A stretch of DNA of 64,000 nt, from the NCBI GenBank assembly GCA_965205485.1, contig OZ242180.1, positions 4,896,001 through 4,960,000 of the forward strand, given 5' to 3'. Below are positions 16,071-44,020 of the stretch, in pieces. The DNA comes from Candidatus Latescibacterota bacterium. GTDB lineage: Bacteria; Latescibacterota; UBA2968; GCA-2709665. The notes beneath the pieces are model-generated. The model ran no database searches. It was not told the DNA's origin and saw only the letters and a program-made list of their open reading frames with translations. Made by a program: the position numbers and the translations under genes. Within the stretch, counting starts at the first letter, position 1, and the number at the start of each line of letters is the position of its first letter.

Positions 16071-18020
16071 ATGTCAGAACCGATGCCCCGAACAGGCAAC
16101 ATAACCGTCACCCTGCCGGACGGCTCTCGAAAGGACTTCCGGGAGGGCGTCACCATCCTGCAGGTGGCCGAATCCATCGGCTCCGGCCTTGCGCGCGCTG
16201 CGCTGGCCGGCAAGGTCAACGGCCGGGCCGTAGATCTCAGCTGTACGCTTCATGACGACGCCGAACTGGAGGTCCTCACCTTCTCCAGCGATGCAGGCAA
16301 GGAAGTGTACTGGCACAGCACCGCCCATATTATGGCGCAGGCGGTGCAGGACCTGTTTCCGGACGTCAAAGTCACGCTGGGGCCGCCCATCGAGAATGGC
16401 TTCTATTACGACTTCGATCGGGAACAGCCGTTCACGCCGGACGAATTGCGCAGAATCGAAGCCAGAATGCGGGAACTCATCGCGGAGGCCCAAGCCTTCG
16501 AGCGCCAGGAAGTCACCCGCGAGGCCGCGATCGATCTGTTCCGGGAACGAGGCGAGACCTATAAGCTGGAAATCCTGGAGGAGATCGAACCCGGCGAGAT
16601 CATCAGCATCTACAGGAATGCCGACAGGTGGCTGGACCTGTGCCGGGGGCCGCATGTTCCCGACACCGGCCGCATAAAGGCCGTAAGACTGCTGAGTTCT
16701 TCGGGCGCATACTGGCGGGGCGACGAAAACAACGTGATGCTCCAGCGCATCTACGGCATTTCCTTTCCGGGACAGAAGGATCTCAACGCCTATCTCGAGT
16801 ACCTGGAAGAAGCAAGGAACAGAGACCACAGGACCCTTGGCCGGCAGCTCGACCTCTTCTCGATCAACGATACGGCCGGCCCCGGTCTGGTTCTCTGGCA
16901 CCCCAACGGGGCGCGCATCAGGAACCAGATTGAAGATTTCTGGCGCGAAGCGCATTACGGCGGCGGCTATGACCTGGTGGGTTCGCCCCACATCGGCAGG
17001 TCCCGTCTCTGGGAAACCAGCGGACACCTGGATTTCTTTCGCGAGAACATGTACCCCCCAATGGACATCGACGGCCAGGCGTATTTCGCCAAGCCGATGA
17101 ATTGTCCATTCCACAGCCTCATCTACAAATCCCGCAGGCGCAGCTACAGAGAGCTTCCCTTCCGCTGGGCCGAACTGGGTACTGTCTACCGCTACGAAAT
17201 GGTCGGCACGCTGCACGGCCTGTTACGGGTGCGCGGTTTCACTCAGGACGACGCGCACATCTTCTGTCGTCCGGATCAGGTGGAGGACGAAGTCTCGCGG
17301 GTTATCGACTTTACGCTGTTCATCCTCAAGTCGTTCGGTTTCGAAGACTTTAACGTCTACATCTCAACCCGCCCCGAGAAAGCGGTTGGAGATCCAGCCG
17401 ATTGGCAACGAGCCACCGACGCGCTCAAGCGCGCCGTCGACGCCCAGAAGCTGCCGTACCGGATCGACGAAGGCGCCGGCGCGTTCTACGGTCCGAAGAT
17501 CGACGTGACGATCAACGATGCCCTGAACAGGGAATGGCAGTGCACGACCATACAGTTCGACTTCAACCTTCCGGAACGATTCGACCTCAGCTATGTCGGG
17601 TCAGACGGGAAGTTCCACCGGCCGTACATGGTTCACCGCGCCCTTCTGGGGGCCATGGAACGGTTCTTCGGCCTGCTGATCGAACACTATGCGGGAAACT
17701 TCCCGCTCTGGCTGGCTCCGGTGCAGGCCGTCGTACTTCCGATATCCGATCCGTTTGCCAACTACGCCGGCGAGGTTGCCAGCCAGCTCAACGGCGCAGG
17801 TCTCCGCGCAGAAGTGGACACGCAGGACGCCAGGTTGGGTTTCAAGATCCGCGAGGCTGAAATCCGGAAAATCCCTTATATGGTCATTGTGGGGAAGCAG
17901 GAAGCCGACGCGCAGTCGATCTCGGTCCGCAGGCATGGCGCCGGTGACCTGGGAAGCATGTCCACGCTCGACCTCATTGCCAGGATGCACAAGGAAGTCC
18001 AGACGAAAAGCGCGGAGTAG
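16071..18020 (+). CDS. thrS: Threonine--tRNA ligase
   Basis: TGS domain, HSTAHIMAQA, DLCRGPH, KPMNCP, RVRGFTQDDAH, GAFYGPKID. Confidence 0.99.
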   Translation: MSEPMPRTGNITVTLPDGSRKDFREGVTILQVAESIGSGLARAALAGKVNGRAVDLSCTLHDDAELEVLTFSSDAGKEVYWHSTAHIMAQAVQDLFPDVKVTLGPPIENGFYYDFDREQPFTPDELRRIEARMRELIAEAQAFERQEVTREAAIDLFRERGETYKLEILEEIEPGEIISIYRNADRWLDLCRGPHVPDTGRIKAVRLLSSSGAYWRGDENNVMLQRIYGISFPGQKDLNAYLEYLEEARNRDHRTLGRQLDLFSINDTAGPGLVLWHPNGARIRNQIEDFWREAHYGGGYDLVGSPHIGRSRLWETSGHLDFFRENMYPPMDIDGQAYFAKPMNCPFHSLIYKSRRRSYRELPFRWAELGTVYRYEMVGTLHGLLRVRGFTQDDAHIFCRPDQVEDEVSRVIDFTLFILKSFGFEDFNVYISTRPEKAVGDPADWQRATDALKRAVDAQKLPYRIDEGAGAFYGPKIDVTINDALNREWQCTTIQFDFNLPERFDLSYVGSDGKFHRPYMVHRALLGAMERFFGLLIEHYAGNFPLWLAPVQAVVLPISDPFANYAGEVASQLNGAGLRAEVDTQDARLGFKIREAEIRKIPYMVIVGKQEADAQSISVRRHGAGDLGSMSTLDLIARMHKEVQTKSAE

Positions 18021-18071
18021 TCCCCTCTATTCTCCAATCAGGCCCGACCGCGGCCCGGATCAAATTCGGAG

Positions 18072-18617
18072 GTGATCGGTATCAACAGAGGTCCAAGAGT
18101 TTTCAGAGATCGAAAGCAGGAACGAGCGCCCCGCGTCAACGAACAGATTCGAATACCCCAGATCCGGCTTGTCGACAAGGATGGCGAGCAGGTCGGCATC
18201 GTGGAAACCAGGAAGGCGATGGAAATGGCAATGGAGGCCGACCTCGACCTGGTCGAAGTCGCTCCTAACGCCCGTCCGCCGGTCTGCCGGATCATGAACT
18301 ACGGCAAGTACAGGTATGAGCAGAGCAAGAAGCAGAAGAAAGGCAAGAAGACCGGATCGCAGCTGAAAGAGATCCGCCTCGGTCCCAGAATCAGCGATCA
18401 CGATTACGAATTCAAGATACGCCACGCCGAAAACTTCCTGAAACACCGACACAAGGTCAGAATCACCGTGGAATTTCGCGGCCGTCAGAATATGTACCGA
18501 ATGCAGGGCAGAGAGTTGCTGGAACGGGCTGAAGAGGACCTTCGTGAGATCGGCGCGGCCGAAATGCCCATCAGGGACGAGGGTCGAAACATCGTCGTCA
18601 TTCTTGCGCCGAAGTAA
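18072..18617 (+). CDS. infC: Translation initiation factor IF-3
   Basis: RVNEQIR, DLVEVAPNARPPVCRIMNYGKY, FRGRQ. Confidence 0.98.
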   Translation: MIGINRGPRVFRDRKQERAPRVNEQIRIPQIRLVDKDGEQVGIVETRKAMEMAMEADLDLVEVAPNARPPVCRIMNYGKYRYEQSKKQKKGKKTGSQLKEIRLGPRISDHDYEFKIRHAENFLKHRHKVRITVEFRGRQNMYRMQGRELLERAEEDLREIGAAEMPIRDEGRNIVVILAPK

Positions 18618-18692
18618 GTTCCGCCGAGCGGCCCGGCTGCCGGTTTCCAAACTCAGTGCGCCACAAAAACGAGCCTTTCCAAGGAGTTGAAC

Positions 18693-18887
18693 GTGCCCAA
18701 AATGAAAACCCACCGAGGAGCGGCGAAACGGTTCAAACGCCGGAAATCCGGCGTTATCGGCCGCGGGAAGTCAACGGTCACGCATAATCTGACAAGCAAG
18801 AGCAGCAAACGCAAAATGCATCTGCGCAAACCCACCGTGGTGCATAAATCCGATCAGGACCGGGTTCAGCGCCTGCTACCCAACTGA
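18693..18887 (+). CDS. rpmI: 50S ribosomal protein L35
   Basis: [22 protein letters not shown]. Confidence 0.98.
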
Positions 18888-19016
18888 CGGACCGAACCGA
18901 TTTCAAGTTGGAAGCGCCGTTCCATCGTACCTTCACCGGCTCTCGGATTCAGCCCGTACCGGACAGGACGCAGACGCAGCGCGCACAACTTGCAGGCGTA
19001 CCAGGAGACCATCGAC

Positions 19017-19370
19017 ATGCCAAGAACGACGAACAGCGTCGCTTCGCGACGCAGGCGAAAGAAAGTACTGAAGGCCGCTCGCGGGTACCGGGGAGGGCGA
19101 AGCAAGCTGTATCGCACCGCGGACGACGCCGTCAACCGCGCCCTTTCCTATGCATACAGGGACCGTCGTCAGAAAAAGAGAAATTTCAGATCTTTGTGGA
19201 TCGTTCGAATCAATGCCGCCGCACGGCTGAACGGCCTCTCGTACAGCTGCCTGATCAACGGCCTGAAAAAGGCCGATATTTCCGTCGACAGAAAGGTCCT
19301 GGCCAACCTCGCCGTCACAGATCCGGCGGCGTTCTCCGCGTTGGCCCAACAAGCCCGCCAACACGTGTAA
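19017..19370 (+). CDS. rplT: 50S ribosomal protein L20
   Basis: [33 protein letters not shown]. Confidence 0.98.
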
Positions 19371-19465
19371 TCTGCCCGCCAGGGCCGACGGAACCCATCG
19401 CTGCATCGCCCCCTCGAATCGCTTCCGAATTCGTTCCCGCCCCCCTTGCGTACGGTATCCCGTCC

Positions 19466-19494
19466 TTGACTTTACGCCATGGACGTGTTACATT
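19466..19494 (+). promoter_or_regulatory. Sigma-70 promoter of zapB-zapA
   Basis: TTGACT-N17-TACATT. Confidence 0.55.
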
Positions 19495-19566
19495 GCGTAG
19501 TACGCTGTATTGTCGCCTCAATGCACGACTTTCTGAGAACTGTGTCTGCAAGGAAAGGGTGAGAAT

Positions 19567-20130
19567 ATGGAAGCGCAAGATCCGGTAAACAAACAATTGG
19601 ATTCGGAAGCCAGTGACGCCGCACCCTTCGTATCTGTCAATGAACCGGAGGAGCCGTTGGAATCGGATGGCCCGGAAGAAGGTCAGCTCGATTTGCAGGA
19701 TCAGCAGAGCGGTTCCTTTGAATCCCCCGGCGCGACAGACGAACCGCAGGAACCGGATGGCCGGGAAGATCCACAGATTGAACTTGACGACCGGGTAGAC
19801 GGAGAACCGGGAGCCGATGACGTGGAAGACGACCGGCTGGAGTCGGAAAGCCTCGTTTCCGATCAGCTGGATCTGCTTTTTGGCGAGATCGATCGCGCAG
19901 TCGGCGTTATCGGACAGTTACGTGAGGAAATCGCCGAACTCGAGCGGAGAAACGGGGAACTCCAGCAGCGGCTGGAAGCGCAGGATCAGGTTATCAACGG
20001 GTTGCAGGCCGAACGGGAACGTCTCCGGTCTATTTACGACAGAAATGCTTCACTGATTGAGAACAGGGAGGAGATCCAACGCAAAATCGAAACCATGATC
20101 TCGCGTCTGGATTCAGTGAACACAGCGTAA
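19567..20130 (+). CDS. ZapB-like coiled-coil protein with long acidic N-terminal extension
   Basis: C-terminal coiled coil ending IQRKIETMISRLD; directly upstream of zapA. Confidence 0.65.
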   Translation: MEAQDPVNKQLDSEASDAAPFVSVNEPEEPLESDGPEEGQLDLQDQQSGSFESPGATDEPQEPDGREDPQIELDDRVDGEPGADDVEDDRLESESLVSDQLDLLFGEIDRAVGVIGQLREEIAELERRNGELQQRLEAQDQVINGLQAERERLRSIYDRNASLIENREEIQRKIETMISRLDSVNTA

Positions 20131-20197
20131 AACAGCAACGTCGACATCCACACGGAACCACATCGTTTCACATCGCCACCGGATGTCTAGAGGACTC

Positions 20198-20482
20198 ATG
20201 TCTGAACAACCGGCAATACGCGTCCAGATCTTCGGCACCGAATACAACATCCACGCTGAAGGCGACCCGGACCATGCCCGGACCGTCGCTCGATACGTGG
20301 ACCGGAAAATGCGTGATGTCGCAAACTACATTTCACTTCGTTCGGTTGCCAAAATCGCAGTCGTTGCGGCCGTGAATCTTGCGCACGAACTGCTCAGAGA
20401 GGAAGAAGCCAGTCGGAACATGGGAAAGACCCTGACCGAACAGACCCAGAATCTGGCGACTTTCACAAACCGGATCGCGTAG
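20198..20482 (+). CDS. zapA: Cell division protein ZapA
   Basis: VQIFGTEYNI, VARYVDRKM, KIAVVAAVNLAHEL. Confidence 0.92.
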   Translation: MSEQPAIRVQIFGTEYNIHAEGDPDHARTVARYVDRKMRDVANYISLRSVAKIAVVAAVNLAHELLREEEASRNMGKTLTEQTQNLATFTNRIA

Positions 20483-20553
20483 AGACGACCTCAAACAAAA
20501 AGGGCGTGCCGGCGGTCGCGGGCACCCCTGCCGGATAATCGATTCCGGTGTTG

Positions 20554-20642
20554 CCTGCTGCGTTCATCTGTAACCATCCGGAGCGGACACTCCTGCCCGG
20601 ACGGGATGTACGGAACCGGATGAATGCAAGCGGGTTTTTTTT
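20554..20642 (+). ncRNA. Candidate short 6S (SsrS)-like RNA
   Basis: Rod-like hairpin CCTGCTGCGTTCATCTG/CGGATGAATGCAAGCGGG with central bubble and 3' T-run, in the zapA-rny interval where 6S RNA usually lies. Confidence 0.5.
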
Positions 20643-20676
20643 ATGCGCGTGGTACCTATAATGCGGGGAGACCAGA

Positions 20677-22263
20677 ATGAACCTGCCGATAGACACGACC
20701 ATGGAAGTCGTGACCGTTCTCATGCTGTCGGCCGGCCTGCTCATACTGGGATTTATCCTGGGATGGCTGATCAGCGGCAAGATCGGGCAAAGCAAGATCC
20801 ATCGCGCCGAACTATCCGCGGAAAAGATCCTCGAAGATGCCCAGACCGAGGCGGACGCGATGAAGCGGACCGCAGTCCTCGAAGCCAAAGACAGGATACA
20901 GCAGGAGCAGCTCCGGTTCGAACAGGAACTCGAAGAAAAACGCGATCGGTCCGCGCGGGAGGAAATGAAGCTGAGCAGTCTCAGAAGGCAGCTTGACAAA
21001 CGTGCGGACCTGTTGAACGACAAGGAGAAACTGGCAACCGAGAAAAACGAGCAGCTCCGGCAGCTGGAGGAGCAACTCGCCGGTCGGGAACGGGATCTCG
21101 AACAGAGCCGGCTGGTGCAGAACAGGCGTCTGGAACAAATCGCGGGTCTCACGAAGGACGAAGCAAAACGCGTCCTGATGGCCAACATGGAAGAGGAGGC
21201 GGAACGCGATGCGGAATGGCGTCTCAAGGAAATCCGCGACGACGCGCTCGTCCGCGCCAACGACGAGGCCCGGGAGATTATAGCCGGCGCGATTCAGCGA
21301 TTGGCCGCCGACCACACGATCGAATCTACCGTTGCGGTCGTACGGCTTCCTTCCGACGAGATGAAGGGGCGAATCATCGGCCGCGAGGGGCGGAACATCC
21401 GTGCCTTTGAAATGGCGACCGGCGTGGATGTCACGATAGACGACACCCCGGAAGCAGTCATCCTGTCGGGGTTCGATCCCATACGCCGCGCCATCGCCCA
21501 GATCGCCATGGAGCAACTCATTCTGGACGGTCGCATCCACCCGGGCCGAATCGAGGAAATCGTCCAGAAATCGCGGGAGTCCATTCAGGAAGTGATGCAC
21601 GATGCCGGCGTTCAGGCGGCATTCGACGCCGGCGTACCGGGCCTGCACGATCGCCTCGTTGCCTGTCTGGGCCGCCTCAAATACCGGACGAGCTACGGCC
21701 AGAACGTGCTGAATCACAGTAAGGAGGTGGCCTTCCTTACCGGCATGATGGCCACCTCGCTCGGCCTCGACGCCCAATTGGCCAAACGCGCGGGACTGCT
21801 TCACGATATCGGAAAGGGGCTGGCGCACGAGGCCGAGGGCACGTACGGAGAAAATGGCGCCGACCTGGCGCGCAAATACGGCGAAGACGCAATCGTTATC
21901 AACGCGATCGAAGCCCATCATGGAGACTCGGACCCCGTTTCACCGGTCGCCGTACTTGTGGACGCCGCCGATTCCATATCCCGGTCCCGGCCGGGCGCCC
22001 AGCGTGAACAGATCGAGAATTACGTCCGGCGACTGGAACGCCTGGAGTCCATCGCCAAGATGGTACAGGGCGTGGAATCCGTCTTCGCCATCAAGGCGGG
22101 ACAGGAGGTCCGGGTGGTTGCGGATTCCGATATGATGAGCGACGCAGACACCGAACGCCTGGCGACGCAGATCGTATCGCGCCTCACCGAGGACGCCACC
22201 TGCCCGGGTCCGGTCAAGGTCACCGTCATCAGAGAAACGCGCTCGGTGGATTTCGCGCGCTGA
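20677..22263 (+). CDS. rny: Ribonuclease Y
   Basis: N-terminal TM, coiled coil, KH (MKGRIIGREGRNIR), HD (AGLLHDIGK). Confidence 0.98.
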   Translation: MNLPIDTTMEVVTVLMLSAGLLILGFILGWLISGKIGQSKIHRAELSAEKILEDAQTEADAMKRTAVLEAKDRIQQEQLRFEQELEEKRDRSAREEMKLSSLRRQLDKRADLLNDKEKLATEKNEQLRQLEEQLAGRERDLEQSRLVQNRRLEQIAGLTKDEAKRVLMANMEEEAERDAEWRLKEIRDDALVRANDEAREIIAGAIQRLAADHTIESTVAVVRLPSDEMKGRIIGREGRNIRAFEMATGVDVTIDDTPEAVILSGFDPIRRAIAQIAMEQLILDGRIHPGRIEEIVQKSRESIQEVMHDAGVQAAFDAGVPGLHDRLVACLGRLKYRTSYGQNVLNHSKEVAFLTGMMATSLGLDAQLAKRAGLLHDIGKGLAHEAEGTYGENGADLARKYGEDAIVINAIEAHHGDSDPVSPVAVLVDAADSISRSRPGAQREQIENYVRRLERLESIAKMVQGVESVFAIKAGQEVRVVADSDMMSDADTERLATQIVSRLTEDATCPGPVKVTVIRETRSVDFAR

Positions 22264-27834: not shown

Positions 27835-28986
27835 ATGAAACCGAAGATTCCAGCCGAACTCCACGACGTCTACGAGAAAGTCCTCGCCGGCGAACGCCTT
27901 TCCGCCGCCGACGGCATGCGCCTTTACGATACGGCGAATCTCAACGCCGTGGGATACATGGCCAATATCGTCCGGGAGCGTCTCTGCGGGAACGTGGCCT
28001 GGTACGTGCGCAATCAGCACATCAACTACACCAACATCTGCAACAAGCTCTGCAGATTCTGCTCCTTCTACGTGCCGCCGAAGGACAGCCGGGGATATGT
28101 GCTCTCCCCTGAAGACATTCAGGAACGCGTAAGACAATATCTGCACATCCCCATCACCGAAATCCACATGGTCGCGGGAATCAACCCCAAACTGCCCTAT
28201 TCCTACTATATCGATATCGTCCGCGCGGTCAAGGACGTCCGTCCGGAGGTCGCCGTCAAAGCCTTTACCGCGATCGAGTGGGTGCAGATCGCCAGAGCCG
28301 CAAAGAAAACGCTTCGTGAGGTCATGCTGGAACTCAAGGCAGCGGGCGTCTCGTCGATTCCCGGCGGCGGCGCCGAAGTCTTCAGCGATCGTGTGCAGGC
28401 GGAGATGTTCTGGACGAAGGCAGACTCCGACGAATGGATGCGCGTTGCCCGCACAGCGCACGAAGTCGGCCTGCCCACCAACGCCACGATGCTTTACGGC
28501 CACATCGAGAATCCTGACGAACGGGTGCAGCATCTTGTCAGCCTTCGGGAACTCCAGGACGAAACCCGCGGCTTTCTGGCGTACATCCCGCTTTCCTTCC
28601 ACCCCGAACGCACCGAACTGGAGGACCTGCCGGCGCCCACCGGCGAAGCCGACCTGCGCGAGATCGCCGTCGCACGTCTCATGCTGGACAACTTCCCGCA
28701 TATCAAGTCGTTCTGGATCATGAACACCATCGAAATCTCACAGGTCGCCCTGTGGTACGGCGCGGACGACATCGACGGCACGATCCAGGAATACGAAATC
28801 ACGAGGCGCACGTACGAGGAGACCCGTCAGGTGCTCACCCGGAAACAGCTGGTGGAACGCATCATCGAAGCCGGTCGGGTGCCCGCGGAACGCGACAATC
28901 TCTACAACGAACTCCGCACGGGGCCGGACGTCGCCGTAGACCGGGACCCTGTGGCCGTACCCGGCGAGTTGCCCGTGCTTCCGTGA
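27835..28986 (+). CDS. mqnE: Aminofutalosine synthase (radical SAM)
   Basis: NYTNICNKLCRFC, PGGGAEVF, NATMLYGH, ARLMLDNFPHIKSFW, GADDIDGT. Confidence 0.92.
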   Translation: MKPKIPAELHDVYEKVLAGERLSAADGMRLYDTANLNAVGYMANIVRERLCGNVAWYVRNQHINYTNICNKLCRFCSFYVPPKDSRGYVLSPEDIQERVRQYLHIPITEIHMVAGINPKLPYSYYIDIVRAVKDVRPEVAVKAFTAIEWVQIARAAKKTLREVMLELKAAGVSSIPGGGAEVFSDRVQAEMFWTKADSDEWMRVARTAHEVGLPTNATMLYGHIENPDERVQHLVSLRELQDETRGFLAYIPLSFHPERTELEDLPAPTGEADLREIAVARLMLDNFPHIKSFWIMNTIEISQVALWYGADDIDGTIQEYEITRRTYEETRQVLTRKQLVERIIEAGRVPAERDNLYNELRTGPDVAVDRDPVAVPGELPVLP

Positions 28987-29127
28987 AGCAGCCCGCGGGA
29001 TTACGGCGTTTCGACCCACGTCGGTTTGCACCGTTACCTACTGTGCCTTTTGTGCTTTTTGTGGCCAATGAAACGGTTATCTTCTTTGTCATGAAGCTGC
29101 GCATGGTCGGGCCCGGAGAATGGATCG

Positions 29128-30228
29128 ATGATCGACGATATCGCCAATAAGATCGACGCGGAAGAACGTATCTCGGTGGAAGACGCCCGCCGGCTGATGG
29201 CGCATCCCAACGTGACGGAACTGGGCATGCTGGCGGACGCCGTGCGCAGGCGCAAATGGCCGGCGGACGTGGTCACCTACAACATCGGCCGCAACATCAA
29301 CTATACGAACGTCTGCTGGGTGCGATGCGACTTCTGCGCGTTCTACCGCCCGCCCGGATCCGGCGAAGGGTACGTCCTGCCCCGGGAGGAGATTTTCCGT
29401 AAGATCGACGAACTGGTGGCCGCGGGGGGGCAGATTCTCAAATCCAACGAGATTCTCATGCAGGGCGGCCTGAATCCCAAGCTGCGCATCGACTACTACG
29501 AAGACCTCTTCTCCAGCATAAGGGAGCGCTATCCGTCGGTCCACCAGCATTGCCTGTCCGCCACCGAGATCATCTATATCGCGCACATCTCGCGGCTGTC
29601 CATCCCGGACTGTATCCGGCGCCTGCGGGACGCCGGCCTGGACTCCATTCCCGGCGCCGGGGCCGAGATCCTGTCGGACGACGTCCGGGACATCATCGGC
29701 TTCCGCAAGGACCGCGTGCACGAGTGGCTGGCGGTGCATCGCGCCGCGCATGAGCTGGGCATGCGCACCACCGCCACCATGATGTACGGCCACGTCGAAT
29801 CCGTCGATCAACGCCTCGAACACCTGAAACACATCCGGGACCTCCAGGACGACACCGGCGGTCTGACGGCATTCATTGCGTGGAATTTCCAGCCGGACGA
29901 TACCGATCTGGCAGCCGACAACACCCGCTGGAACGGCAGGATGGCCACCGGGTACGATTACCTGCGTACCATTGCGGTCTCCCGCATGTTCCTGGACAAC
30001 GTTTCCAGTTTTCAGGCCTCGTGGGTGACCCAGGGACCCAAGATCGCCCAGGTCGGCCTCAAATACGGCGTCAACGACTTCGGCAGCACCATGATGGAGG
30101 AAAACGTCGTCTCCGCCGCTGGTACCAGCCACACGGACGACATGAACCTTCCCACGATGTTACGCCTCATCCGGGGCGCCGGCTACCGGCCGGCAAGACG
30201 CGACACCCGGTACGAAATGGTGAACTGA
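29128..30228 (+). CDS. mqnC: Cyclic dehypoxanthine futalosine synthase (radical SAM)
   Basis: RNINYTNVCWVRCDFCAFYR, PGAGAEIL, QASWVTQG, NDFGSTMMEENVV. Confidence 0.93.
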   Translation: MIDDIANKIDAEERISVEDARRLMAHPNVTELGMLADAVRRRKWPADVVTYNIGRNINYTNVCWVRCDFCAFYRPPGSGEGYVLPREEIFRKIDELVAAGGQILKSNEILMQGGLNPKLRIDYYEDLFSSIRERYPSVHQHCLSATEIIYIAHISRLSIPDCIRRLRDAGLDSIPGAGAEILSDDVRDIIGFRKDRVHEWLAVHRAAHELGMRTTATMMYGHVESVDQRLEHLKHIRDLQDDTGGLTAFIAWNFQPDDTDLAADNTRWNGRMATGYDYLRTIAVSRMFLDNVSSFQASWVTQGPKIAQVGLKYGVNDFGSTMMEENVVSAAGTSHTDDMNLPTMLRLIRGAGYRPARRDTRYEMVN

Positions 30229-30239
30229 AAGCCGTGCGA

Positions 30240-31040
30240 ATGGCAACCCGCCTCGCTGTGGTCTCGTTCCTGAACACCCGTCCCCTGGTGCATGCCCTGG
30301 AGACCGGCCGAATCGAACATCGCTTCGATCTTGCCTACGACGTGCCCTCCCGCTGCGCGGAACGCCTTCACAGCGGCGATGCCGACGTTGCCCTCATCCC
30401 CTCCATCGAAGTCGCCCGCGGGCCCGTTCCATACCGCGTGGTGCCCGAAGTCAGTATTTCCTCCCTGGGGCCGGTCCGGAGCGTACTGCTCCTGCACCGC
30501 AAAGACCCGGCCGATATACGGACGCTCGCCCTCGACGTCAACTCCCGGACGTCCGCCGTCCTCAGCCGCATTCTATTGCAGAAGAGATTCGGGTGCAGGC
30601 CCGATATCCTCCACCTGCCTCCCGACGCCGGACGCATGCTGGATCGCGCCGATGCAGCCGTCATCATCGGAGACGCAGCCCTTGCCGTGGATGTGACGTC
30701 CTGTTCCGTGATCGATCTGGGCGAAGCATGGACCGGGCTGACGGGCCTTCCGTTCGTGTACGCCTGCTGGGCAGGCCGGTCCGATGCGCTGGATCCCGGT
30801 CAAACACGGCAGCTGATCCGGGCGAAGGCGCTGGGGGTCCGGGAGATCCCCGCGATAGCGGCGGATTGCGCGTCGTCCCATTCGGGTTCGGCTGAATTCT
30901 ATGCCGACTTCATGGGCAACCGGATCCGTTACGACTTTGGCGAGGCTGAAATGAAGGGCCTGAACCTCTTTTACAGATACGCACGCGAGTTGGGCAGTAT
31001 CGGAAACATCCCCAAAATTCGTTTCTACGCGCAATCCTGA
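30240..31040 (+). CDS. mqnA: Chorismate dehydratase (futalosine pathway)
   Basis: VSFLNTRPL, GPVRSVLL, SRTS, IIGDAAL, DLGEAW..LTGLPFVYACW. Confidence 0.9.
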   Translation: MATRLAVVSFLNTRPLVHALETGRIEHRFDLAYDVPSRCAERLHSGDADVALIPSIEVARGPVPYRVVPEVSISSLGPVRSVLLLHRKDPADIRTLALDVNSRTSAVLSRILLQKRFGCRPDILHLPPDAGRMLDRADAAVIIGDAALAVDVTSCSVIDLGEAWTGLTGLPFVYACWAGRSDALDPGQTRQLIRAKALGVREIPAIAADCASSHSGSAEFYADFMGNRIRYDFGEAEMKGLNLFYRYARELGSIGNIPKIRFYAQS

Positions 31041-36031: not shown

Positions 36032-39000
36032 ATGCTGATATTCGCCTTCGCACTCGTCCTGTTCCTCGTTGCAATCCGGCCTGATCCGGCGGCGGCGGAC
36101 CCCGTCATTCCGCCGGACCTGGACGAGACCGACGTGAAACGCCTGCGTCGAAATCTCCAACCGGTTCTCACGCTCTCCGACAGCGAAATACTGCGCCTCA
36201 TCCCCGACCGCTCGGGCATCTACTTCGTGGACTGCCCCAACTGCGACGGCGGCGCGCAGGAGGGCCAGATCGACTGGACCATCGACGACCCGGACCGTGT
36301 TTTCTGCAAATACTGCGGCCTGAAATATCCCAACGAAAAATTCCCGGACACCGACACGCTGAGCGTGGTCAACCCCGTTGGCGAGACCCAGGAATATCCC
36401 TATTGGGAGGACGAAACCGGGTACAGACATTTCTTTCAGGCCAAGGGATGGTACCGGGCGCGGGCCTACTTCGCCGGCGCGGCCCACGACCTGGCGGCGC
36501 TCCACTTTGCAACCGGAGACACCTCCTTCGCCCGCCGCGCGGCCCTCATTCTGAACCGGTTCGCCGAGGTCTATCCCGGGTACTGCGTCCACCACGACCT
36601 GCCCTTCCGGCAGAAGATCATCTTTCCCGGAAGCCAGGGGTTTCCCTACCCGGTCCAGGACTACCGCGCCTCCAAGTGGGACTGGTGGGCGTACATGGAC
36701 ATTCCCGAGAATCTGATCTACACGTACGACCTCATCCGGGACAGCGGAGAACTCGACAGCACGATGGTCCGGCGTATCGAAGACGGGTTCTTCCACGCCA
36801 GCGTGGCCTTCATCCGGGGCTTCCCGCCCGCGCTGGGCAATATGGACCCCACGCTGCTTCGCGGCATGGTCGCGGCAGGACGGGTCCTGGAGGAACCGGA
36901 CTATATCCACGACGCGGTCGACCGGATCGAGAGACTTATCGCCGCCAACTTCTTCGTGGACGGCGTATGGCGCGAAGGCGCGATTTCCTATCACAACCAG
37001 ACCATCGGCGGGCTGCGGCAGGTGATGGAGAGACTGAACGGTTACAGCGATCCCGAGGGATACGTCCACCCCGTCGACGGCGAACGCTACGACAATCTGG
37101 ACCTGAACGCCCGCTTTCCCATCCTGACAAAAGCCGCGGGCATCCCCGAGCTTCTCCGCTATCCCAACGGCCGCGTGGTGCCCACCCACGACACGTGGGC
37201 GAAGGGGCGGCAAGACCCCCCTGAAACATCCGGCCCCCTGCTCCTGCCCGGTATGGGACACGCCCGCCTCGATATGGGAAGGGGCGAAAACCAGACCCAG
37301 ACCTATCTCCACTTCTCCGGCGGATACGGCCACCAGCACGCCGACCTCCTTAGCCTCACTCTCTACGCGCGCGGGCAGGAACGGCTGAGCGATATCGGCT
37401 ATACCCACACGCGCCACCGGTGCTGGACCCTCTCCACGCTGTCGCACAACACGGTTGCCGTGGACGGCAATGACCAGGCATACGGCTCCGGAAACGCCCC
37501 GTCGGACGGCAACCTCCTTCTGTTCGCGCCGCACAGCGACACGTTTCAGGCGATCGAAGCCTCCGGCGACCGCGCCTATCCGGGCGTGACCTCGGTTTAC
37601 CGCCGGCTGCTGATCCAGGTCGGCATCTCGCCCGAACAGTCCTACGTGGTCGACCTGTTCAGGGTCGCCGGCGGTCATCGCCACGAATATATCCTCACCG
37701 GCGACGCCGACCACGAAGGCGCGGTCGACGTCGACCTGCCCGACGCGCCCCACGGGAACACGCTTCTCCCGGATGGCGTGACCGCCACGCTGCCCACCGG
37801 CGAGAGCGTCAAGGGCGACGCCGGGGGCCACAACCTGGGATACGCGTTCATCCGCGAGGTGCGCCGCGCCGACGTGACCCGGCCCTGGACCGCGACGTTC
37901 ACCAGCGCGGCCGAGCCGGCCGGTTCCGTCCGGGTACACAGCCTGACCCGCCCCGGCGGAGACCTCTTCACCGCGCGGGCGCCGTCCATTCGAAACGCCG
38001 ATGAGGATGACGTCCGGCTGGACGAGATTACCATGCCGATGCTGGTCCACCGTCGCGAAGGCGAGAACCTCTCCACCCTCTTTGGCACGGTCCTGGAACC
38101 GGTCGGCGACCGTCCGGCCGTCACTCGCGTGGAACGCCTCGACGCGGACGGCGCATCGGATACGGATATCGCGCTCAGGGTCGTCTCCGGCGAGGTTACC
38201 GACTACATACTGTCCGCGACGGACGAAAGCCGGTCGCTCAGCACCGGAGACCTCAGGTTCCGCGGGCGCATCGGCTTCGTCCGGGAACGAAACGGCGAAG
38301 TCGAAGAGATGATCCTGATCGGCGGCACGCTGCTCGAAAAGGGCGGACGCAGGCTCGGCGGCCGCGGAACCCGCAGCGGCGCCGTCCTGGGGACCACGCG
38401 AAAGGCCGCGGGAGACGACGCGGACGGAATCCACGTCGATACCGAATTGCCAACCGGCGTGGACCTCGTGGGCCTCACCGCCGTTGTCACCGACGGCGAC
38501 GGATTCACGTACGGCCACAAGATAAAGGGCCTGCAGCACCTTGAAGACGGCGGCACGTTGCTGGAACTGGAGGACGATCCGGGGTATGAAATCACCGCGG
38601 ACGGAGGCCGGCTCCTGTTCTTCCCCGGACGGTCCTGGAAGGGACCCGCTCAGGTGGAAATACCTACCGTGGCCAGCCTGCGCATCAACACGTCCGGCGT
38701 CAATGCCACCCGAACCGGGGACTGGATCAATCTGGTCCACAACGCGCCGTTCTCGCCGCGCGACACCTCCGAAGACGTCGTATTCCAGGACAAGCTCTGG
38801 ATCAGCAATGCCTATTACCACGCCGGCATCCTCACCCGGGACCTCTGGAATTCATCCGACGGCGTCAGCTGGCATCTGGTCAGCGAAGCCACGCCGTACG
38901 ACGGCTACAGCGAAATGACGGTCTACAGGGACCGCATCTGGGCGGTGAAGGGAAGCGTCTGGAACTCCCCGGACGGCCTTGAGTGGTCCCGGGTTCTGGA

Positions 39001-39577
39001 AGAAACCCCCTTCGGTTCGCGCGGTTACGGCGAACTTCTGGTGTTTCGCGACCGGATGTGGCAACTCGGCAGCGGCAGCGACGTGTGGCGCACCGATGAC
39101 GGCATCGCGTGGATCCGCGCCGCGACCGACGCCCCGTACGGAAAGCGGTCCGCAACCGCCGTGGCTGCGTACGACGGCCGGCTGTGGGTGATGGGCGGCC
39201 GCAGAGTCCAGCCCAACGATCCGCCGGAGAAAGGCTATCCCGACTACACCACCCTCAACGACGTCTGGTCTTCGGAGGACGGCGTCAACTGGACTCGGGT
39301 GCTCGAACACGCCCCGTGGTCGCCGCGGATGTGGTTCATTCCGAAAGTCTACGCGGGCAGGCTCTGGATCATCGGGGGGTACGACAACGTCAACTCCACG
39401 AACCTGGGGGATGTCTGGTTCACCGATAACGGCCGGGACTGGCACGAGTTCAAGCCCCGGACCCGCTTTTCGCCGCGTCACGAATCCACGTGCTACGTAT
39501 TCCGGAACAGCCTCTGGGTTGTCGCGGGCAATACCTGGCCGGTGGTAAACGACGTCTGGCGCCTGACGCTGCCCTGA
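36032..39577 (+). CDS. Secreted heparinase II/III-like polysaccharide lyase fused to a C-terminal Kelch-like beta-propeller
   Basis: Signal peptide; WREGAISYH, GHQHADLLSL, DIGY, SHNTVAVDG; repeated LWVMGG/DVWSSEDG blades. Confidence 0.8.
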   Translation: MLIFAFALVLFLVAIRPDPAAADPVIPPDLDETDVKRLRRNLQPVLTLSDSEILRLIPDRSGIYFVDCPNCDGGAQEGQIDWTIDDPDRVFCKYCGLKYPNEKFPDTDTLSVVNPVGETQEYPYWEDETGYRHFFQAKGWYRARAYFAGAAHDLAALHFATGDTSFARRAALILNRFAEVYPGYCVHHDLPFRQKIIFPGSQGFPYPVQDYRASKWDWWAYMDIPENLIYTYDLIRDSGELDSTMVRRIEDGFFHASVAFIRGFPPALGNMDPTLLRGMVAAGRVLEEPDYIHDAVDRIERLIAANFFVDGVWREGAISYHNQTIGGLRQVMERLNGYSDPEGYVHPVDGERYDNLDLNARFPILTKAAGIPELLRYPNGRVVPTHDTWAKGRQDPPETSGPLLLPGMGHARLDMGRGENQTQTYLHFSGGYGHQHADLLSLTLYARGQERLSDIGYTHTRHRCWTLSTLSHNTVAVDGNDQAYGSGNAPSDGNLLLFAPHSDTFQAIEASGDRAYPGVTSVYRRLLIQVGISPEQSYVVDLFRVAGGHRHEYILTGDADHEGAVDVDLPDAPHGNTLLPDGVTATLPTGESVKGDAGGHNLGYAFIREVRRADVTRPWTATFTSAAEPAGSVRVHSLTRPGGDLFTARAPSIRNADEDDVRLDEITMPMLVHRREGENLSTLFGTVLEPVGDRPAVTRVERLDADGASDTDIALRVVSGEVTDYILSATDESRSLSTGDLRFRGRIGFVRERNGEVEEMILIGGTLLEKGGRRLGGRGTRSGAVLGTTRKAAGDDADGIHVDTELPTGVDLVGLTAVVTDGDGFTYGHKIKGLQHLEDGGTLLELEDDPGYEITADGGRLLFFPGRSWKGPAQVEIPTVASLRINTSGVNATRTGDWINLVHNAPFSPRDTSEDVVFQDKLWISNAYYHAGILTRDLWNSSDGVSWHLVSEATPYDGYSEMTVYRDRIWAVKGSVWNSPDGLEWSRVLEETPFGSRGYGELLVFRDRMWQLGSGSDVWRTDDGIAWIRAATDAPYGKRSATAVAAYDGRLWVMGGRRVQPNDPPEKGYPDYTTLNDVWSSEDGVNWTRVLEHAPWSPRMWFIPKVYAGRLWIIGGYDNVNSTNLGDVWFTDNGRDWHEFKPRTRFSPRHESTCYVFRNSLWVVAGNTWPVVNDVWRLTLP

Positions 39578-40145: not shown

Positions 40146-40233
40146 GCCGAAGTGGTGGAACTGGTAGACGCGCTGCGTTCAGGGCGCAGTGAGCCTTGTG
40201 CTCGTGGGGGTTCGAATCCCCCCTTCGGCACCA
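40146..40233 (+). tRNA. tRNA-Leu (anticodon CAG)
   Basis: GCCGAAG/CTTCGGC acceptor stem, CTGCG-TTCAGGG-CGCAG anticodon arm, long variable arm, GTTCGAAT T-loop, encoded CCA. Confidence 0.97.
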
Positions 40234-40307: not shown

Positions 40308-41993
40308 TCAGCGTTGATCTCCCGCGATATCGATGTTGACTTCGAACGCGCTCACGGGTACCGATACGCTCCAGTGCTCCAGGACTTCGGGATGGACTTC
40401 GCCGATGATGCCGTAGCTTTCGCCACCCACCCGGATTTCCCCGGCCCGTCCCGGAAGGAAAGTGGGATGCTCCGAAGGCGTGAGGTCATAATCAAATCCG
40501 AGGTAGTAGGCAATGGCTTCGAGCCGGCTTTGAATTCCCGAGAGATTGGCCTCGGCGTGCGCCTCCAGCGCCGCGAGGCGGATTTCGGTGCGGGTGCCGT
40601 ACAGGTCGTCCGGAGCGACGACAGAGACCTCGCCCACCTCGAAGACATGGTGGGGATAAAGAGCCTTTCGGCTCGCCCCTTCCACGCGGAGCAGCCCGGG
40701 CAGCAGGGCGTTCCGGACCGCGCTGTAGTTGTCCGACATGGGGTTGGAAATCTCGACGATCGCGGCTTCGGTGTCACGCATTCGTTCCGTCAGGTCAACA
40801 CACGACGAGAGAATGGGCAGGAAGAGCTCCTGAAACCCGCATCCGACCATCAGGCCGCGGATGCGGTCCGCGAGGTCTTCCTCGGGCGCGGACTTGCCCA
40901 CCGTGAAATCGCGCGGCAATTCGGGTTCGAAGCTGTCGAAGCCCACGGCCACGATCACGTCCTCGATGAGGTCCACGGGATGCAGGATATCGTCCCGGTA
41001 CGGCGCCGGCCGCGCCCGTACGCGGGTGGGGTCGAGCCCGACGTCCCGGTATCCCATGGCGGCCAGGGCGGCTTCGATGCTTGCGTTGTCGATTCCGCCG
41101 CCGACGACGCGCCGCAGGTCGTCCAGGTCGACTTCCACCGGTACCGTCATATCCAGGGGGCACAGGATCTCCCGCCCGCGCGGCGTATCGTACGGATAGA
41201 CGACGTTGACAGGCAGGATGCGCCCGCCGCGGTCCCCCATGTTGGCGGCCATAATGGAAACCGAAAGGAGTACGGCGTCGAGCTCGGTGCCGGTGGCCTC
41301 GCAAAAGAGAAACGTGTCGCCGACCGCCACGGCGCCAGGGTTCCGGCTGTTGATCACGGGAGGCATGGAGAGGACGTCGCCCCTGCTGTCGGTGATGAGG
41401 GGAAATCTGCCGAAGCCTTCGAGCAGATGCGCGTAGGTCTGCCCGGTGGGGTGTTCGCTCAGGATTTCCCGAAGCGTCAGTTCCGTTTCCATGCCCAGCG
41501 GGACAAAGCGGGCCGTATCCGGGTCGGCGGCGGCGAAGTTGACGGGAAACACGACGTTGGAAGCGTCGTAAATGCCAATGGCCACGGCGCTTCGACCGCG
41601 CCCGTATCCTTCCGCCAGTTTTTCCTGGGCTTCGATGAGCTGCTCGAGGGCCGCCTCGTCCACCTCGATCCCTCTGCACGCAAAGGCGGCGATCCAGGGC
41701 CGGATGCCAATCAGGGAGGGATCGACGCGCAGTTCCAGGTCCGTCGCGGATTCCTCGAAAAAGGGATAGGACTCGTGCCTGCCGTTCCGATGCCCCCTGA
41801 GCAGCCTGGCGACCCCCTCGGACGACCAGAGATCCGGACGGTTGGTATCCTTCAGTTGAATCCTCAACCGGGAGTCGTCCTCGACCTTGACCTCGGCTTT
41901 GACAGCCTCCAGTGCGCGTTCGAGTTCGGGAAGGTCGTACTTCCGGCCCGCGAGTCGCTCGAGGTCCTGTCTGATGACGCTAATCGTGGGCAT
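40308..41993 (-). CDS. pheT: Phenylalanine--tRNA ligase beta subunit, archaeal/spirochaete type
   Basis: 561 aa; DTNRPDLWS, LSMPPVINS, YRDDILHPVDLIEDV; lacks the bacterial OB and FDX-ACB domains. Confidence 0.93.
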   Translation of the reverse strand: MPTISVIRQDLERLAGRKYDLPELERALEAVKAEVKVEDDSRLRIQLKDTNRPDLWSSEGVARLLRGHRNGRHESYPFFEESATDLELRVDPSLIGIRPWIAAFACRGIEVDEAALEQLIEAQEKLAEGYGRGRSAVAIGIYDASNVVFPVNFAAADPDTARFVPLGMETELTLREILSEHPTGQTYAHLLEGFGRFPLITDSRGDVLSMPPVINSRNPGAVAVGDTFLFCEATGTELDAVLLSVSIMAANMGDRGGRILPVNVVYPYDTPRGREILCPLDMTVPVEVDLDDLRRVVGGGIDNASIEAALAAMGYRDVGLDPTRVRARPAPYRDDILHPVDLIEDVIVAVGFDSFEPELPRDFTVGKSAPEEDLADRIRGLMVGCGFQELFLPILSSCVDLTERMRDTEAAIVEISNPMSDNYSAVRNALLPGLLRVEGASRKALYPHHVFEVGEVSVVAPDDLYGTRTEIRLAALEAHAEANLSGIQSRLEAIAYYLGFDYDLTPSEHPTFLPGRAGEIRVGGESYGIIGEVHPEVLEHWSVSVPVSAFEVNIDIAGDQR

Positions 41994-42010
41994 TCACGCT
42001 CCTTTATCCG

Positions 42011-43597
42011 TTACCCCGCCGCCCGCATGTTCTCTCGCTCGTTCCGGATCAGATCCAGGTCGGTGCTGAAAAGGTCGCGGATGTCGTCGATCCCCAATGC
42101 CACCATCGCCATGCGGTCGATGCCCAGTCCCCACGCGATGACGGGAACGTCGACGCCCAGGGGGCGCGTGAGCTCGGGCCGGAAGAGGCCGGCGCCGCCG
42201 AATTCGATCCAGCCCAGCGAGGGGTGCCTCGCCTGTAGTTCGACCGACGGCTCCGTGAACGGGAAATAGTCCGGAACAAAGCGGCACTCCTCCGATTGCG
42301 CGATTTCCAGGGCGAAGAGCTTGAGCAGGCCGAGCAGACTCCGGAAGTTGATGCGCTCGCCCAGAACGATGCCCTCCACCTGGATGAAGTCGGCGGCGTG
42401 GGTCGCGTCGACGTCGTCGTACCGGAAACAGCGCGCAACGGCGAAGTACTTCCCCGGGATGTCCGGCCCCGAAGCAAGCGTGCGTGCCGACAGGGCGGTT
42501 CCCTGGCTGCGCAGGATGAGACGTCGCGCGCGCGCGGGGCTGAATTCGTACCGCCAGCCGCGGGAGCCCGTGTCGCCGCCGTTGGCGTGGGCTTCGGCCA
42601 CTTTCGAGAAGTAGGGTTCTTCGGCCGCTTTCGAACGAACGGGATCTTTTACGTAGTAGGCGTCATGGATATTGCGCGCCGCGTGGAACTGCGGCATGAA
42701 CAGGGCATCCATATTCCAGAATTCGGTTTCCACCAGCGGCCCCTTCATTTCTTCGAATCCCAGCGAGAGCAGCTTGCGCCTCACGCCGTCAAGGTAGGCG
42801 CGGTAGGGGTGAAGACGGCCGATGACGATACGCGGGGGCTTGATGCTGATGTCGTAACGGCGGAACGATACATTCTTCCAGGCCCCGGACCGGATCACTC
42901 CCGGTGTCAGGCGCGAGACCTCTTCGCCGGTCAGATTGTTCTCCAGAATGCTCGCCAACGTCCGGACGCCCGGCGACGTGAGTCTGTACGTGCGCTCCAG
43001 GCGTTCGTCCATGCGGACGGCCGACCTTCCCTTACCGCGCTTGCTGGTTCGCGCCCGGATATATGACTGGATCTCTTCCGTGAAGTCGCCGAGATTCAAC
43101 CCGGCTCCGTCGCCGGCCCGTTGAAGCCGCCCGAAGAGCCCGGGTATCAGCCTCTCCACGTAGAACGCGGCCCTTTCGGGATTGGCGATGCGGATCGTCG
43201 CGCCCTCCTGACGGATCGTACCCTCCGCCTTCAGCCCGCCGAACGCGCTTCCCCACTCGCCCCTGTCAAAGCGGGTGTCTTCCTGCAGTTCCCTGAGCGT
43301 TGGCGCGGGCGCTTCCCCGGCCCGGACCAGCAGCGCGGTTTCGGGCGTCGCGCCGGCGCGGGCGTGTTCGACGCCCGATCCGGTCAGGCTGACGGTGGAG
43401 ACCGTGGCTTCCGAGACGATTTCGATGAGTCCCTTGGAACGCAGCCATTCCAGCGCGCGCCGGCTCTGGCCGGGACCGATGCCCGCGGCTTCCGGCAGTG
43501 CGGCGTCGGTGATTTCGTGGTCCTCACGCGGCTCGAAGGCGCGCAGCGTCCTGATTTCGAGCGCGTGAAGGGACGAAAGGTCGATCGGCTGATTCAC
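42011..43597 (-). CDS. pheS: Phenylalanine--tRNA ligase alpha subunit, archaeal/spirochaete type
   Basis: ~528 aa with long N-terminus; FWNMDALFMPQFHAAR, DATHAADFIQVEG, YFPFTEPS, IAWGLGIDR; GTG start with AGGGAG RBS. Confidence 0.94.
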   Translation of the reverse strand: MNQPIDLSSLHALEIRTLRAFEPREDHEITDAALPEAAGIGPGQSRRALEWLRSKGLIEIVSEATVSTVSLTGSGVEHARAGATPETALLVRAGEAPAPTLRELQEDTRFDRGEWGSAFGGLKAEGTIRQEGATIRIANPERAAFYVERLIPGLFGRLQRAGDGAGLNLGDFTEEIQSYIRARTSKRGKGRSAVRMDERLERTYRLTSPGVRTLASILENNLTGEEVSRLTPGVIRSGAWKNVSFRRYDISIKPPRIVIGRLHPYRAYLDGVRRKLLSLGFEEMKGPLVETEFWNMDALFMPQFHAARNIHDAYYVKDPVRSKAAEEPYFSKVAEAHANGGDTGSRGWRYEFSPARARRLILRSQGTALSARTLASGPDIPGKYFAVARCFRYDDVDATHAADFIQVEGIVLGERINFRSLLGLLKLFALEIAQSEECRFVPDYFPFTEPSVELQARHPSLGWIEFGGAGLFRPELTRPLGVDVPVIAWGLGIDRMAMVALGIDDIRDLFSTDLDLIRNERENMRAAG

Positions 43598-43671: not shown

Positions 43672-43990
43672 CGAAAAAATCCTTTCATCCCCATAGGGAC
43701 GAAAGGACGTGACGTCTTCCGCGGTACCACCCTATTTGCGCCTTGCAGGCGCCGCTCTTCAGGCGGCCACAACCGCCCCTCTCCATTGTCGGCGGGAGTC
43801 ACCGGCTTCGCCTAGTAACGATTGCCGCGAACGTCTTTCAGGCCAGGGGCCGAATCCGGCAATCGCATTCAGCGTTGCAGCTCGAGAGGGAACTTCGGCC
43901 GTTCATGCCGCGAGGGCGCTTTCAGTCCGGGGCGCCCCCTCCCTTTCCGGTTGGAGACGGCCTACTTTCCTCCGTCATCGCTTTGGGTGA
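43672..43990 (-). promoter_or_regulatory. T-box riboswitch with Phe (UUC) specifier
   Basis: Minus strand: GCGATGA K-turn, AGTA, AGGGAG/GACTGAAAG distal motifs, GAAG-TTC specifier (43890-43892), AAATAGGGTGGTACCGCG T-box (43720-43737), terminator + T-run. Confidence 0.93.
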
Positions 43991-43991
43991 G

Positions 43992-44020
43992 AAAATAGGA
44001 TGTTGTACGATTTAAGTCAA
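43992..44020 (-). promoter_or_regulatory. Promoter of the T-box-pheST transcript
   Basis: Minus strand TTGACT-N17-TATTTT immediately upstream of the T-box. Confidence 0.55.

What the first reader, a model, noticed from the sequence alone, without database searches (positions are those of the whole stretch)
40308..43597. Archaeal/spirochaete-type PheRS appears to have displaced bacterial pheST
Seen: the alpha subunit is ~528 aa with a long N-terminus and an NxDALFxPQxHxAR motif. The beta subunit is only 561 aa and lacks the OB and anticodon-binding domains. In the same window, thrS-infC-rpmI-rplT is followed directly by zapB-zapA. Known: bacterial PheRS is ~340/~790 aa and usually sits right after rplT, often before zapA; spirochaetes carry the archaeal type. 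Inference: xenologous displacement, with the vacated native locus and the replacement ~21 kb apart and the new copy beside a tRNA gene.
Basis: partly seen in the sequence, partly recalled or inferred. Interest (0 to 1): 0.72.

Follow-up and report, generated by a model that had tools for sequence, protein, structure and literature searches.

The report
Archaeal-type PheRS with T-box riboswitch
This bacterium and its close relatives long ago swapped their bacterial phenylalanyl-tRNA synthetase for the archaeal kind, dropped the old genes from their usual slot, and most of them control the new ones with a tRNA-sensing RNA switch; it is a clean new case of a known type of gene swap.

Summary
Displacement is supported. 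Both subunits score as archaeal-type, and they are the only PheRS found in a one-contig, 97%-complete genome. Closest relatives are mostly titled Latescibacterota. The archaeal beta passes its cut-off in 47 of 50 genomes of this order and in 0 of 77 other phylum genomes. Sister families keep bacterial pheST after rplT (14 of 15 loci), while 30 of 30 own-order loci join rplT to zapB. The swap is therefore old and order-wide. The 21-kb distance and the tRNA-Leu neighbour are genus-specific and say nothing about insertion. In the alpha tree the enzyme lies in one clade with those of spirochaetes, Nitrospirota and Fermentibacterota, nested among archaeal sequences, so it probably arrived through another bacterium; the donor is unresolved. 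Archaeal-type PheRS displacement is published for spirochaetes. This scan noted the same T-box and enzyme before in other genomes, and that note led me to the T-box.

The parts
43992..44020 (-). sigma-70-like promoter TTGACT-17-TATTTT just before the leader (consensus match only)
   Evidence: 1 found, 0.4 expected in shuffles; weak alone, but it sits 5 nt before the T-box model start
43692..43987 (-). class I (transcriptional) T-box leader, Phe-specific; specifier UUC at 43892-43890; T-box sequence with UGGU bulge at 43733-43720
   Evidence: RF00230 positions 1-219 of 219, 80.3 bits, E 2e-17, below the gathering score of 93; covariation
43672..43708 (-). intrinsic terminator overlapping the 3' arm of the antiterminator, followed by a U tract
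   Evidence: terminator -20.7, antiterminator -13.2 kcal/mol
42011..43597 (-). pheS, archaeal/eukaryal-type PheRS alpha, 528 aa from GTG (frame open from ATG 43639)
   Evidence: PRK04172 522 bits against cut-off 350; best fold match human 3l4g
40308..41993 (-). pheT, archaeal/eukaryal-type PheRS beta, 561 aa, without B2 and B8
   Evidence: TIGR00471 472 bits (cut-off 283), TIGR00472 96 bits (cut-off 403); 2cxi_A E 6e-67
40146..40233 (+). tRNA-Leu(CAG), convergent neighbour; genus-level only, no duplicated 3' end
16071..19370 (+). thrS-infC-rpmI-rplT cluster, left flank of the vacated slot
19371..19566 (+). 196-bp rplT-zapB junction where sister families carry bacterial pheS-pheT; no remnant found
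19567..22263 (+). zapB-like, zapA, rny: right flank of the vacated slot

Best explanation
In the ancestor of this order an archaeal-type pheS-pheT operon arrived by horizontal transfer and settled away from the ribosomal-protein cluster. The bacterial pheS-pheT was then deleted from between rplT and zapB (the pattern is shown; the order of events is inferred). The enzyme is an ordinary alpha2-beta2 PheRS. Its alpha N-terminal domains probably hold the tRNA in place of the missing bacterial anticodon-binding B8 domain (inferred from the human enzyme, recalled). It charges an unchanged bacterial tRNA-Phe with U20. The operon has its own promoter and a T-box. Uncharged tRNA-Phe pairs its GAA anticodon with the UUC specifier and its ACCA end with the UGGU bulge, holding the antiterminator so that pheST is transcribed when charging is low (the parts are shown; the switching is inferred). 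The operon most likely came through another bacterium, from a lineage of archaeal-type PheRS shared by several phyla, and not straight from an archaeon.
For: Type. Only copy: one PF01409 match, no pheT_bact over cut-off, no FDX-ACB, and sister-family pheS/pheT hit only this locus. Distribution: 47 of 50 own-order and 0 of 66 sister-family genomes over the TIGR00471 cut-off; 46 of 48 against 0 of 77 at phylum level. Synteny: 14 of 15 sister loci read rplT-pheS-pheT, and the 15th is cut by a contig end; 30 of 30 own-order loci read rplT-zapB-like. Old: GC3 0.82 and 0.79 against 0.70-0.83 for seven neighbours. T-box; 42 of 50 own-order genomes; pheS directly downstream in 27 of 30 T-box loci; UUC in 37 of 38 parsed leaders, the exception being a leuS leader; 15 of 33 pairs change on both sides, 0 of 500 shuffles as high. 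Tree: a 40-row clade holding every named bacterial archaeal-type alpha, 99/99 under LG and 96 under the mixture model.
Against: The T-box scores below Rfam's gathering cut-off here. It is missing upstream of pheS in 6 own-order genomes checked by hand, so it is dispensable. No expression data were obtained. The sister of the Latescibacterota enzyme is unresolved: spirochaetes 62/96 in the concatenated tree, Nitrospirota not rejected at p-AU 0.20, Fermentibacterota 85 in the mixture tree. Many tree rows are unnamed, 7 of them inside the 40-row clade, so some could be archaeal. No archaeal beta was on hand. Pfam PheRS_DBD models did not hit the alpha N-terminus. Three own-order genomes lack a full-length hit (two fragments, one miss in a 930-contig assembly).
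Confidence: 0.88

Rival explanations
1. The operon was inserted recently at tRNA-Leu(CAG) by a mobile element, close to the native locus.
For: The tRNA 3' end faces the pheT end 75 bp away. The two sites are 21 kb apart.
Against: The tRNA is adjacent in only 13 of 44 related loci. The last 14-20 nt of the tRNA occur once in the genome. Base composition matches the neighbours. The distance is short only within the genus. The trait spans two families.
Confidence: 0.04
2. The order took the enzyme directly from an archaeon, independently of spirochaetes and Nitrospirota.
For: Woesearchaeota- and Nanoarchaeota-named alphas are the nearest named rows outside the clade. Unnamed rows inside the clade could be archaeal.
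Against: Identity is about 52% to Nitrospirota alphas, and the named Woesearchaeota and Nanoarchaeota representatives score lower. All named bacterial sequences fall in one starred clade under two models.
Confidence: 0.08
3. The archaeal type is ancestral in the phylum and the sister families regained a bacterial type.
For: Another FCB-related phylum (relationship recalled), Fermentibacterota, carries the same enzyme lineage and groups weakly with it in one tree.
Against: None of the 77 phylum genomes outside the order, from 11 families, has the archaeal type. In the sampled sister families the bacterial genes sit in the canonical slot after rplT.
Confidence: 0.03
4. Origin of the T-box, a separate question: a resident leuS T-box was moved and re-specified by one base (CUC to UUC), instead of travelling with the operon.
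For: The one T-box found in 66 sister-family genomes is a CUC leader before leuS. Six of six aligned Nitrospirota T-boxes read CUC. The bulge UGGU fits both tRNAs, which share A73 (PMC9976931 table). No T-box motif lies upstream of archaeal-type pheS in 36 Nitrospirota-like loci or 80 metagenome loci (some with short upstream DNA).
Against: Only 1 of 66 sister genomes and 0 of 20 genomes of other classes have any T-box, so an ancestral resident T-box is not shown. No RNA phylogeny was made, and Fermentibacterota leaders were not seen.
Confidence: 0.4

Closest known systems
Archaeal-type PheRS of Spirochaeta, Borrelia and Treponema (Andam and Gogarten 2011, PMC3191353; passages read)
   Same: Both subunits replaced together; sizes match their 513-528 and 514-573 aa; marks a whole clade; Treponema-named alphas fall in the same starred clade.
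   Different: A different phylum. That paper names Thermococcales as nearest, with Nanoarchaeum weakly for beta. My nearest named outgroups are Woesearchaeota and Nanoarchaeota, but no row is named Thermococcales, so that is untested. No T-box is mentioned in the passages seen.
Archaeal/eukaryal cytosolic PheRS (TIGR00471, PRK04172; PDB 3l4g, 2cxi)
   Same: Passes both curated cut-offs; long alpha N-terminus; beta without B2 and B8; best sequence and fold matches.
   Different: Works with a bacterial tRNA-Phe bearing U20, not the G20 listed for Archaea and Eukarya (PMC9976931 table), and sits under a bacterial riboswitch.
Class I T-box leaders (Rfam RF00230)
   Same: Full-length model match, specifier loop, T-box bulge, competing terminator, aminoacyl-tRNA synthetase target.
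   Different: Host is outside the groups listed in PMC3766115 (Firmicutes, Actinobacteria, Chloroflexi, Thermus/Deinococcus, Geobacter). It is the only T-box found in the genome, has insertions in the stem II-III region, and controls an archaeal-type enzyme.
Archaeal-type PheRS of Nitrospirota
   Same: Same enzyme clade; 86 of 131 genomes over cut-off.
   Different: There the operon lies inverted right beside rplT in 30 of 36 loci and has no T-box motif upstream.

Membership tests
Archaeal/eukaryal-type PheRS | beta passes pheT_arch and fails pheT_bact | tested here: met
   472 bits against cut-off 283; 96 against 403
Archaeal/eukaryal-type PheRS | alpha of about 500 aa matching the long-type model over its whole length | tested here: met
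   PRK04172 522 bits, residues 23-535
Archaeal/eukaryal-type PheRS | beta lacks B2 (OB) and B8 (FDX-ACB) | tested here: met
   with a sister-family beta as positive control
Archaeal/eukaryal-type PheRS | alpha N-terminal DNA-binding-fold domains as in human PheRS | tested here: inconclusive
   Confident alpha/beta domains predicted and a full-length Foldseek alignment to 3l4g_C, but TM 0.47 and rmsd 22.7; no Pfam DBD hit
Archaeal/eukaryal-type PheRS | branches with archaeal, not bacterial, PheRS | tested here: met
   alpha only; the beta was not treed with archaea
Archaeal/eukaryal-type PheRS | Phe-tRNA synthesis and editing activity | not testable with these tools
   Inferred from being the only PheRS found
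Xenologous displacement | native copy absent from the genome | tested here: met
   one contig, 97.3% complete
Xenologous displacement | outgroups keep the native form at the native site | tested here: met
Spirochaete PheRS lineage in the narrow sense | sister to or nested within spirochaete PheRS | tested here: inconclusive
   Not nested; sister only at 62/96 in one of three trees
Class I T-box | RF00230 match at the gathering score | tested here: not met
   80.3 against 93 bits here; 16 own-order homologues exceed it
Class I T-box | specifier codon matching the downstream gene | tested here: met
   UUC
Class I T-box | T-box bulge UGGN complementary to the tRNA 3' end; alternative terminator | tested here: met
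   UGGU against ACCA of tRNA-Phe
Class I T-box | stem I structure supported by covariation | tested here: met
   I set the structure from the Rfam alignment, and the sequences are kin
Class I T-box | tRNA-dependent antitermination | not testable with these tools
   needs in vitro transcription

The most novel reading that the evidence does not exclude
One ancient transfer from a DPANN-like archaeon founded a bacterial lineage of archaeal-type PheRS that then moved between phyla (spirochaetes, Nitrospirota, Fermentibacterota, this order, scattered others) and repeatedly evicted the native enzyme without any change at tRNA-Phe position 20. In this order it was domesticated by a T-box re-specified from Leu to Phe by a single base. 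That would recast the spirochaete case as one branch of a wider sweep and give a natural example of riboswitch retargeting that accompanies displacement of an essential gene.
Probability: 0.25. Interest if true: 0.65.

Novelty: new variant of a known kind. Interest (0 to 1): 0.42.

Why it matters
It is a clear case of replacement of an essential translation enzyme: the empty slot, the outgroups with the slot filled and the order-wide replacement can all be seen. It gives a diagnostic marker for an uncultured order and warns against using pheS/pheT as phylogenomic markers there. It suggests that the spirochaete transfer is part of a wider bacterial lineage. It also offers two direct tests: how an archaeal-type PheRS reads a U20 bacterial tRNA, and how a T-box gets attached to a newly acquired gene. 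The biochemistry itself is ordinary.

Tried and rejected
Rfam at the gathering threshold finds no T-box in the window; it appears only by E-value. ARAGORN's tRNA-Ser inside pheT is not called by Rfam and is rejected as a false call. The plasmid collection gave only weak, half-length bacterial-type pheS matches and no match to the leader. Sequencing runs: no RNA holder listed, so no reads were laid. The Atlas search only restated the family. Cluster look-ups named the organism for few of 30 proteins. tRNA co-adaptation at position 20 was tested and not seen: U20 in 9 of 9 own-order and 11 of 11 sister-family tRNA-Phe. My rpmI reference was out of frame, so rpmI was not scored in the synteny tables. 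The 6S-like hairpin between zapA and rny got no Rfam match. Nine paper searches listed no paper whose title or abstract start concerns PheRS or T-boxes in Latescibacterota; the library lacks most subscription journals, and I read no supplements (PMC3766115 additional files and the TBDB database could list such T-boxes).
Full report
Observation. The two genes lie as stated: pheT 40308-41993(-), 561 aa, and pheS ending at 42011, 528 aa from GTG 43597 or 542 aa from ATG 43639. The alpha scores 522 bits on the long-type model PRK04172, and the beta 472 bits on pheT_arch against 96 on pheT_bact. The beta has no OB or FDX-ACB domain, which a sister-family beta does have. The nearest solved relatives are human 3l4g, 8s8b and 2cxi; that 2cxi is archaeal is recalled and also appears in an earlier scan note. 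thrS, infC, rplT, a zapB-like gene, zapA and rny are in order, with 196 bp between rplT and the zapB-like gene.

Only copy. The genome is one contig of 5.13 Mb, 97.3% complete. PF01409 matches once, at this locus. pheT_bact finds only this beta and a short E 1e-6 match to model positions 46-123 elsewhere, both under cut-off. FDX-ACB finds nothing, while ringing in 11 of 14 controls. tblastn with two sister-family pheS and two pheT proteins hits only this pheS.

Host and distribution. Most of the closest loci are titled Candidatus Latescibacterota, some Gemmatimonadota or 'bacterium'; I take the phylum from those titles. Among 116 genomes of the class, 47 pass the pheT_arch cut-off, all in the window's order of 50. 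The other three are two fragmented genes and one miss in a 930-contig assembly. None of 66 sister-family genomes passes. At phylum level 46 of 48 own-order and 0 of 77 other genomes pass. In those 77 the match lies in long frames, mostly near 800 aa, and one such gene was confirmed as pheT_bact at 802 bits. I did not run pheT_bact on the own-order relatives, but the archaeal model also reports bacterial betas weakly and showed no such extra match there.

The vacated slot. I took 15 of the 66 sister-family loci. Fourteen read rplT-pheS (336-377 aa)-pheT (787-803 aa) and then rny; the fifteenth is cut by a contig end inside pheT. zapB-like or zapA hits were detected between pheT and rny in 10 of the 15. 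All of the 30 best-scoring of 50 own-order rplT loci, the window among them, have the zapB-like gene straight after rplT. This is the pattern expected if the bacterial pair was deleted once in the order's ancestor.

What does not hold. The rplT-pheT distance is 21-29 kb in 14 of 14 genomes of the genus and 95 kb to 4.9 Mb in 20 of 20 other own-order genomes; genomes with the genes on different contigs were left out (coordinates). tRNA-Leu(CAG) lies beside pheT in 13 of 44 Latescibacterota-like loci, all at 82% identity or more; two of the rest end too early to tell. Its 3' end is not duplicated, and GC3 of both genes matches the neighbours. Proximity and the tRNA are later, genus-level arrangements.

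The T-box. An earlier scan note prompted a look upstream. RF00230 matches 43692-43987(-) over its whole length, 80.3 bits, E 2e-17, below the gathering score of 93, and it is the only match in the genome. The specifier is UUC. The bulge UGGU complements the ACCA end of the single tRNA-Phe. A terminator (-20.7 kcal/mol) overlaps the antiterminator (-13.2), and a promoter-like site lies just upstream. It is found in 42 of 50 own-order genomes and 1 of 66 sister-family genomes, and in 0 of 34 genomes re-searched with laxer filters: 20 of other classes, 8 sister-family, 6 own-order. pheS follows directly in 27 of 30 loci; one is the leuS leader and two give no pheS reading at contig ends. Of 40 loci given, 38 were parsed and 37 read UUC; the pattern looked for Phe codons, some loci repeat a genome, and the odd one is the leuS leader with CUC. 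On 14 leaders, 95.7% of cells pair and 15 of 33 pairs change on both sides, with 0 of 500 shuffles as high and slid controls near 45%; kin inflate this. Against necessity: six own-order genomes have no trace of it before pheS.

Origin. After the order itself, the next relatives are Nitrospirota at about 52%. In that phylum 86 of 131 genomes pass the archaeal cut-off, and the operon lies inverted beside rplT in 30 of 36 loci. One of these loci, L066, is in genome G139, flagged unpublished; no conclusion rests on it alone. Other carriers named by their sources are Leptospirillum, Fermentibacterota, a Deltaproteobacteria bacterium, Treponema and Spirochaetales and a Planctomycetes bacterium. A 62-row alpha tree, hand-picked from these and from 150 representatives and rooted on three bacterial-type sequences, puts all named bacterial archaeal-type rows in one 40-row clade (99/99; 96 under LG+C20). 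The nearest named rows outside are Woesearchaeota and Nanoarchaeota. The nine Latescibacterota rows are a clade at 100. Its sister changes with the analysis: unresolved, spirochaete-like at 62/96 on 22 concatenated alpha-beta rows with Nitrospirota not rejected, Fermentibacterota at 85. Limits: archaeal rows were chosen by likeness to the query, many are unnamed, none is named Thermococcales, several have odd composition, and no archaeal beta was available. Nitrospirota do have T-boxes (26 of 101 genomes), but six of six aligned read CUC. No T-box motif precedes archaeal-type pheS in 36 Nitrospirota-like loci, 16 further Nitrospirota loci or 80 metagenome loci. The coupling of T-box and enzyme thus looks peculiar to this order.

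How it works. Shown: gene types, single copy, distribution, synteny, leader anatomy. Inferred: an alpha2-beta2 enzyme whose alpha N-terminal domains bind the tRNA in place of B8, which contacts G34 in Thermus PheRS (PMC9976931, passages). It must accept a tRNA with bacterial U20, found in this genome and in 20 of 20 relatives, although G20 is the listed archaeal determinant. Antitermination by uncharged tRNA-Phe follows the established T-box mechanism. A gene pair that has left the rplT transcript needs its own promoter and benefits from feedback, which is my inferred reason for the T-box.

Known and new. Displacement by an archaeal-type PheRS is published for spirochaetes (PMC3191353, passages read), and standard models label these genes correctly. 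T-boxes are described mainly from Firmicutes, Actinobacteria, Chloroflexi, Thermus/Deinococcus and Geobacter (PMC3766115, passages). PMC7778990, PMC5370408 and PMC4427996 were searched by term (passages only) and added nothing on this lineage. Nine library searches (listings and abstract starts only) showed no paper on it; subscription journals and supplements were not seen. Earlier notes of this scan describe the same system in other Latescibacterota genomes and parallel cases in other phyla; they are leads, not support. Verdict: a real, old, order-wide displacement of a known kind, with an unreported-looking regulatory variant. Interest 0.42.

Noticed in passing
window 41529-41610 (+): ARAGORN calls a tRNA-Ser(GGA) inside pheT on the opposite strand; Rfam does not; likely false.
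   Followed up: yes
window 19567-20130 (+): The zapB-like protein has an acidic N-terminal extension (187 aa here, mostly 80-105 aa in sister families); it is not a pheT remnant by tblastn.
   Followed up: partly
window 20496-20650: A long hairpin region (-73 kcal/mol, no shuffle control) between zapA and rny, where 6S RNA often lies (recalled); no Rfam match at E<=1.
   Followed up: partly
L150 1501-1744 (G062): A strong Leu T-box (124.5 bits, CUC) before leuS in one sister-family genome, the only T-box found in 66 such genomes.
   Followed up: partly
L219-L233 (Nitrospirota): T-boxes in 26 of 101 Nitrospirota genomes; six aligned read CUC (Leu); their downstream genes were not identified.
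   Followed up: partly
L066-L103, L181, L188, L189: In Nitrospirota the archaeal-type pheST lies inverted and convergent right after rplT, i.e. at the native site.
   Followed up: partly
L028, L030, L031 about 8340-9900: Some genus members carry an extra gene of about 1.5 kb between pheT and tRNA-Leu whose start resembles an ECF sigma factor (recalled likeness, not scanned).
   Followed up: no
genomes G145-G271: Many Nitrospirota without the archaeal type have pheT frames of only about 690-720 aa, shorter than the usual 790-800.
   Followed up: no
window 27835-31040 (+): Two radical-SAM MqnC/CofH-like genes and a menaquinone-biosynthesis gene, suggesting a futalosine pathway cluster.
   Followed up: no
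window 36032-39577 (+): A 1181-aa protein with a heparinase II/III-like domain and C-terminal kelch repeats.
   Followed up: no
L087 2623-2839 (-): A group I intron match upstream of pheS in one Nitrospirae locus.
   Followed up: no
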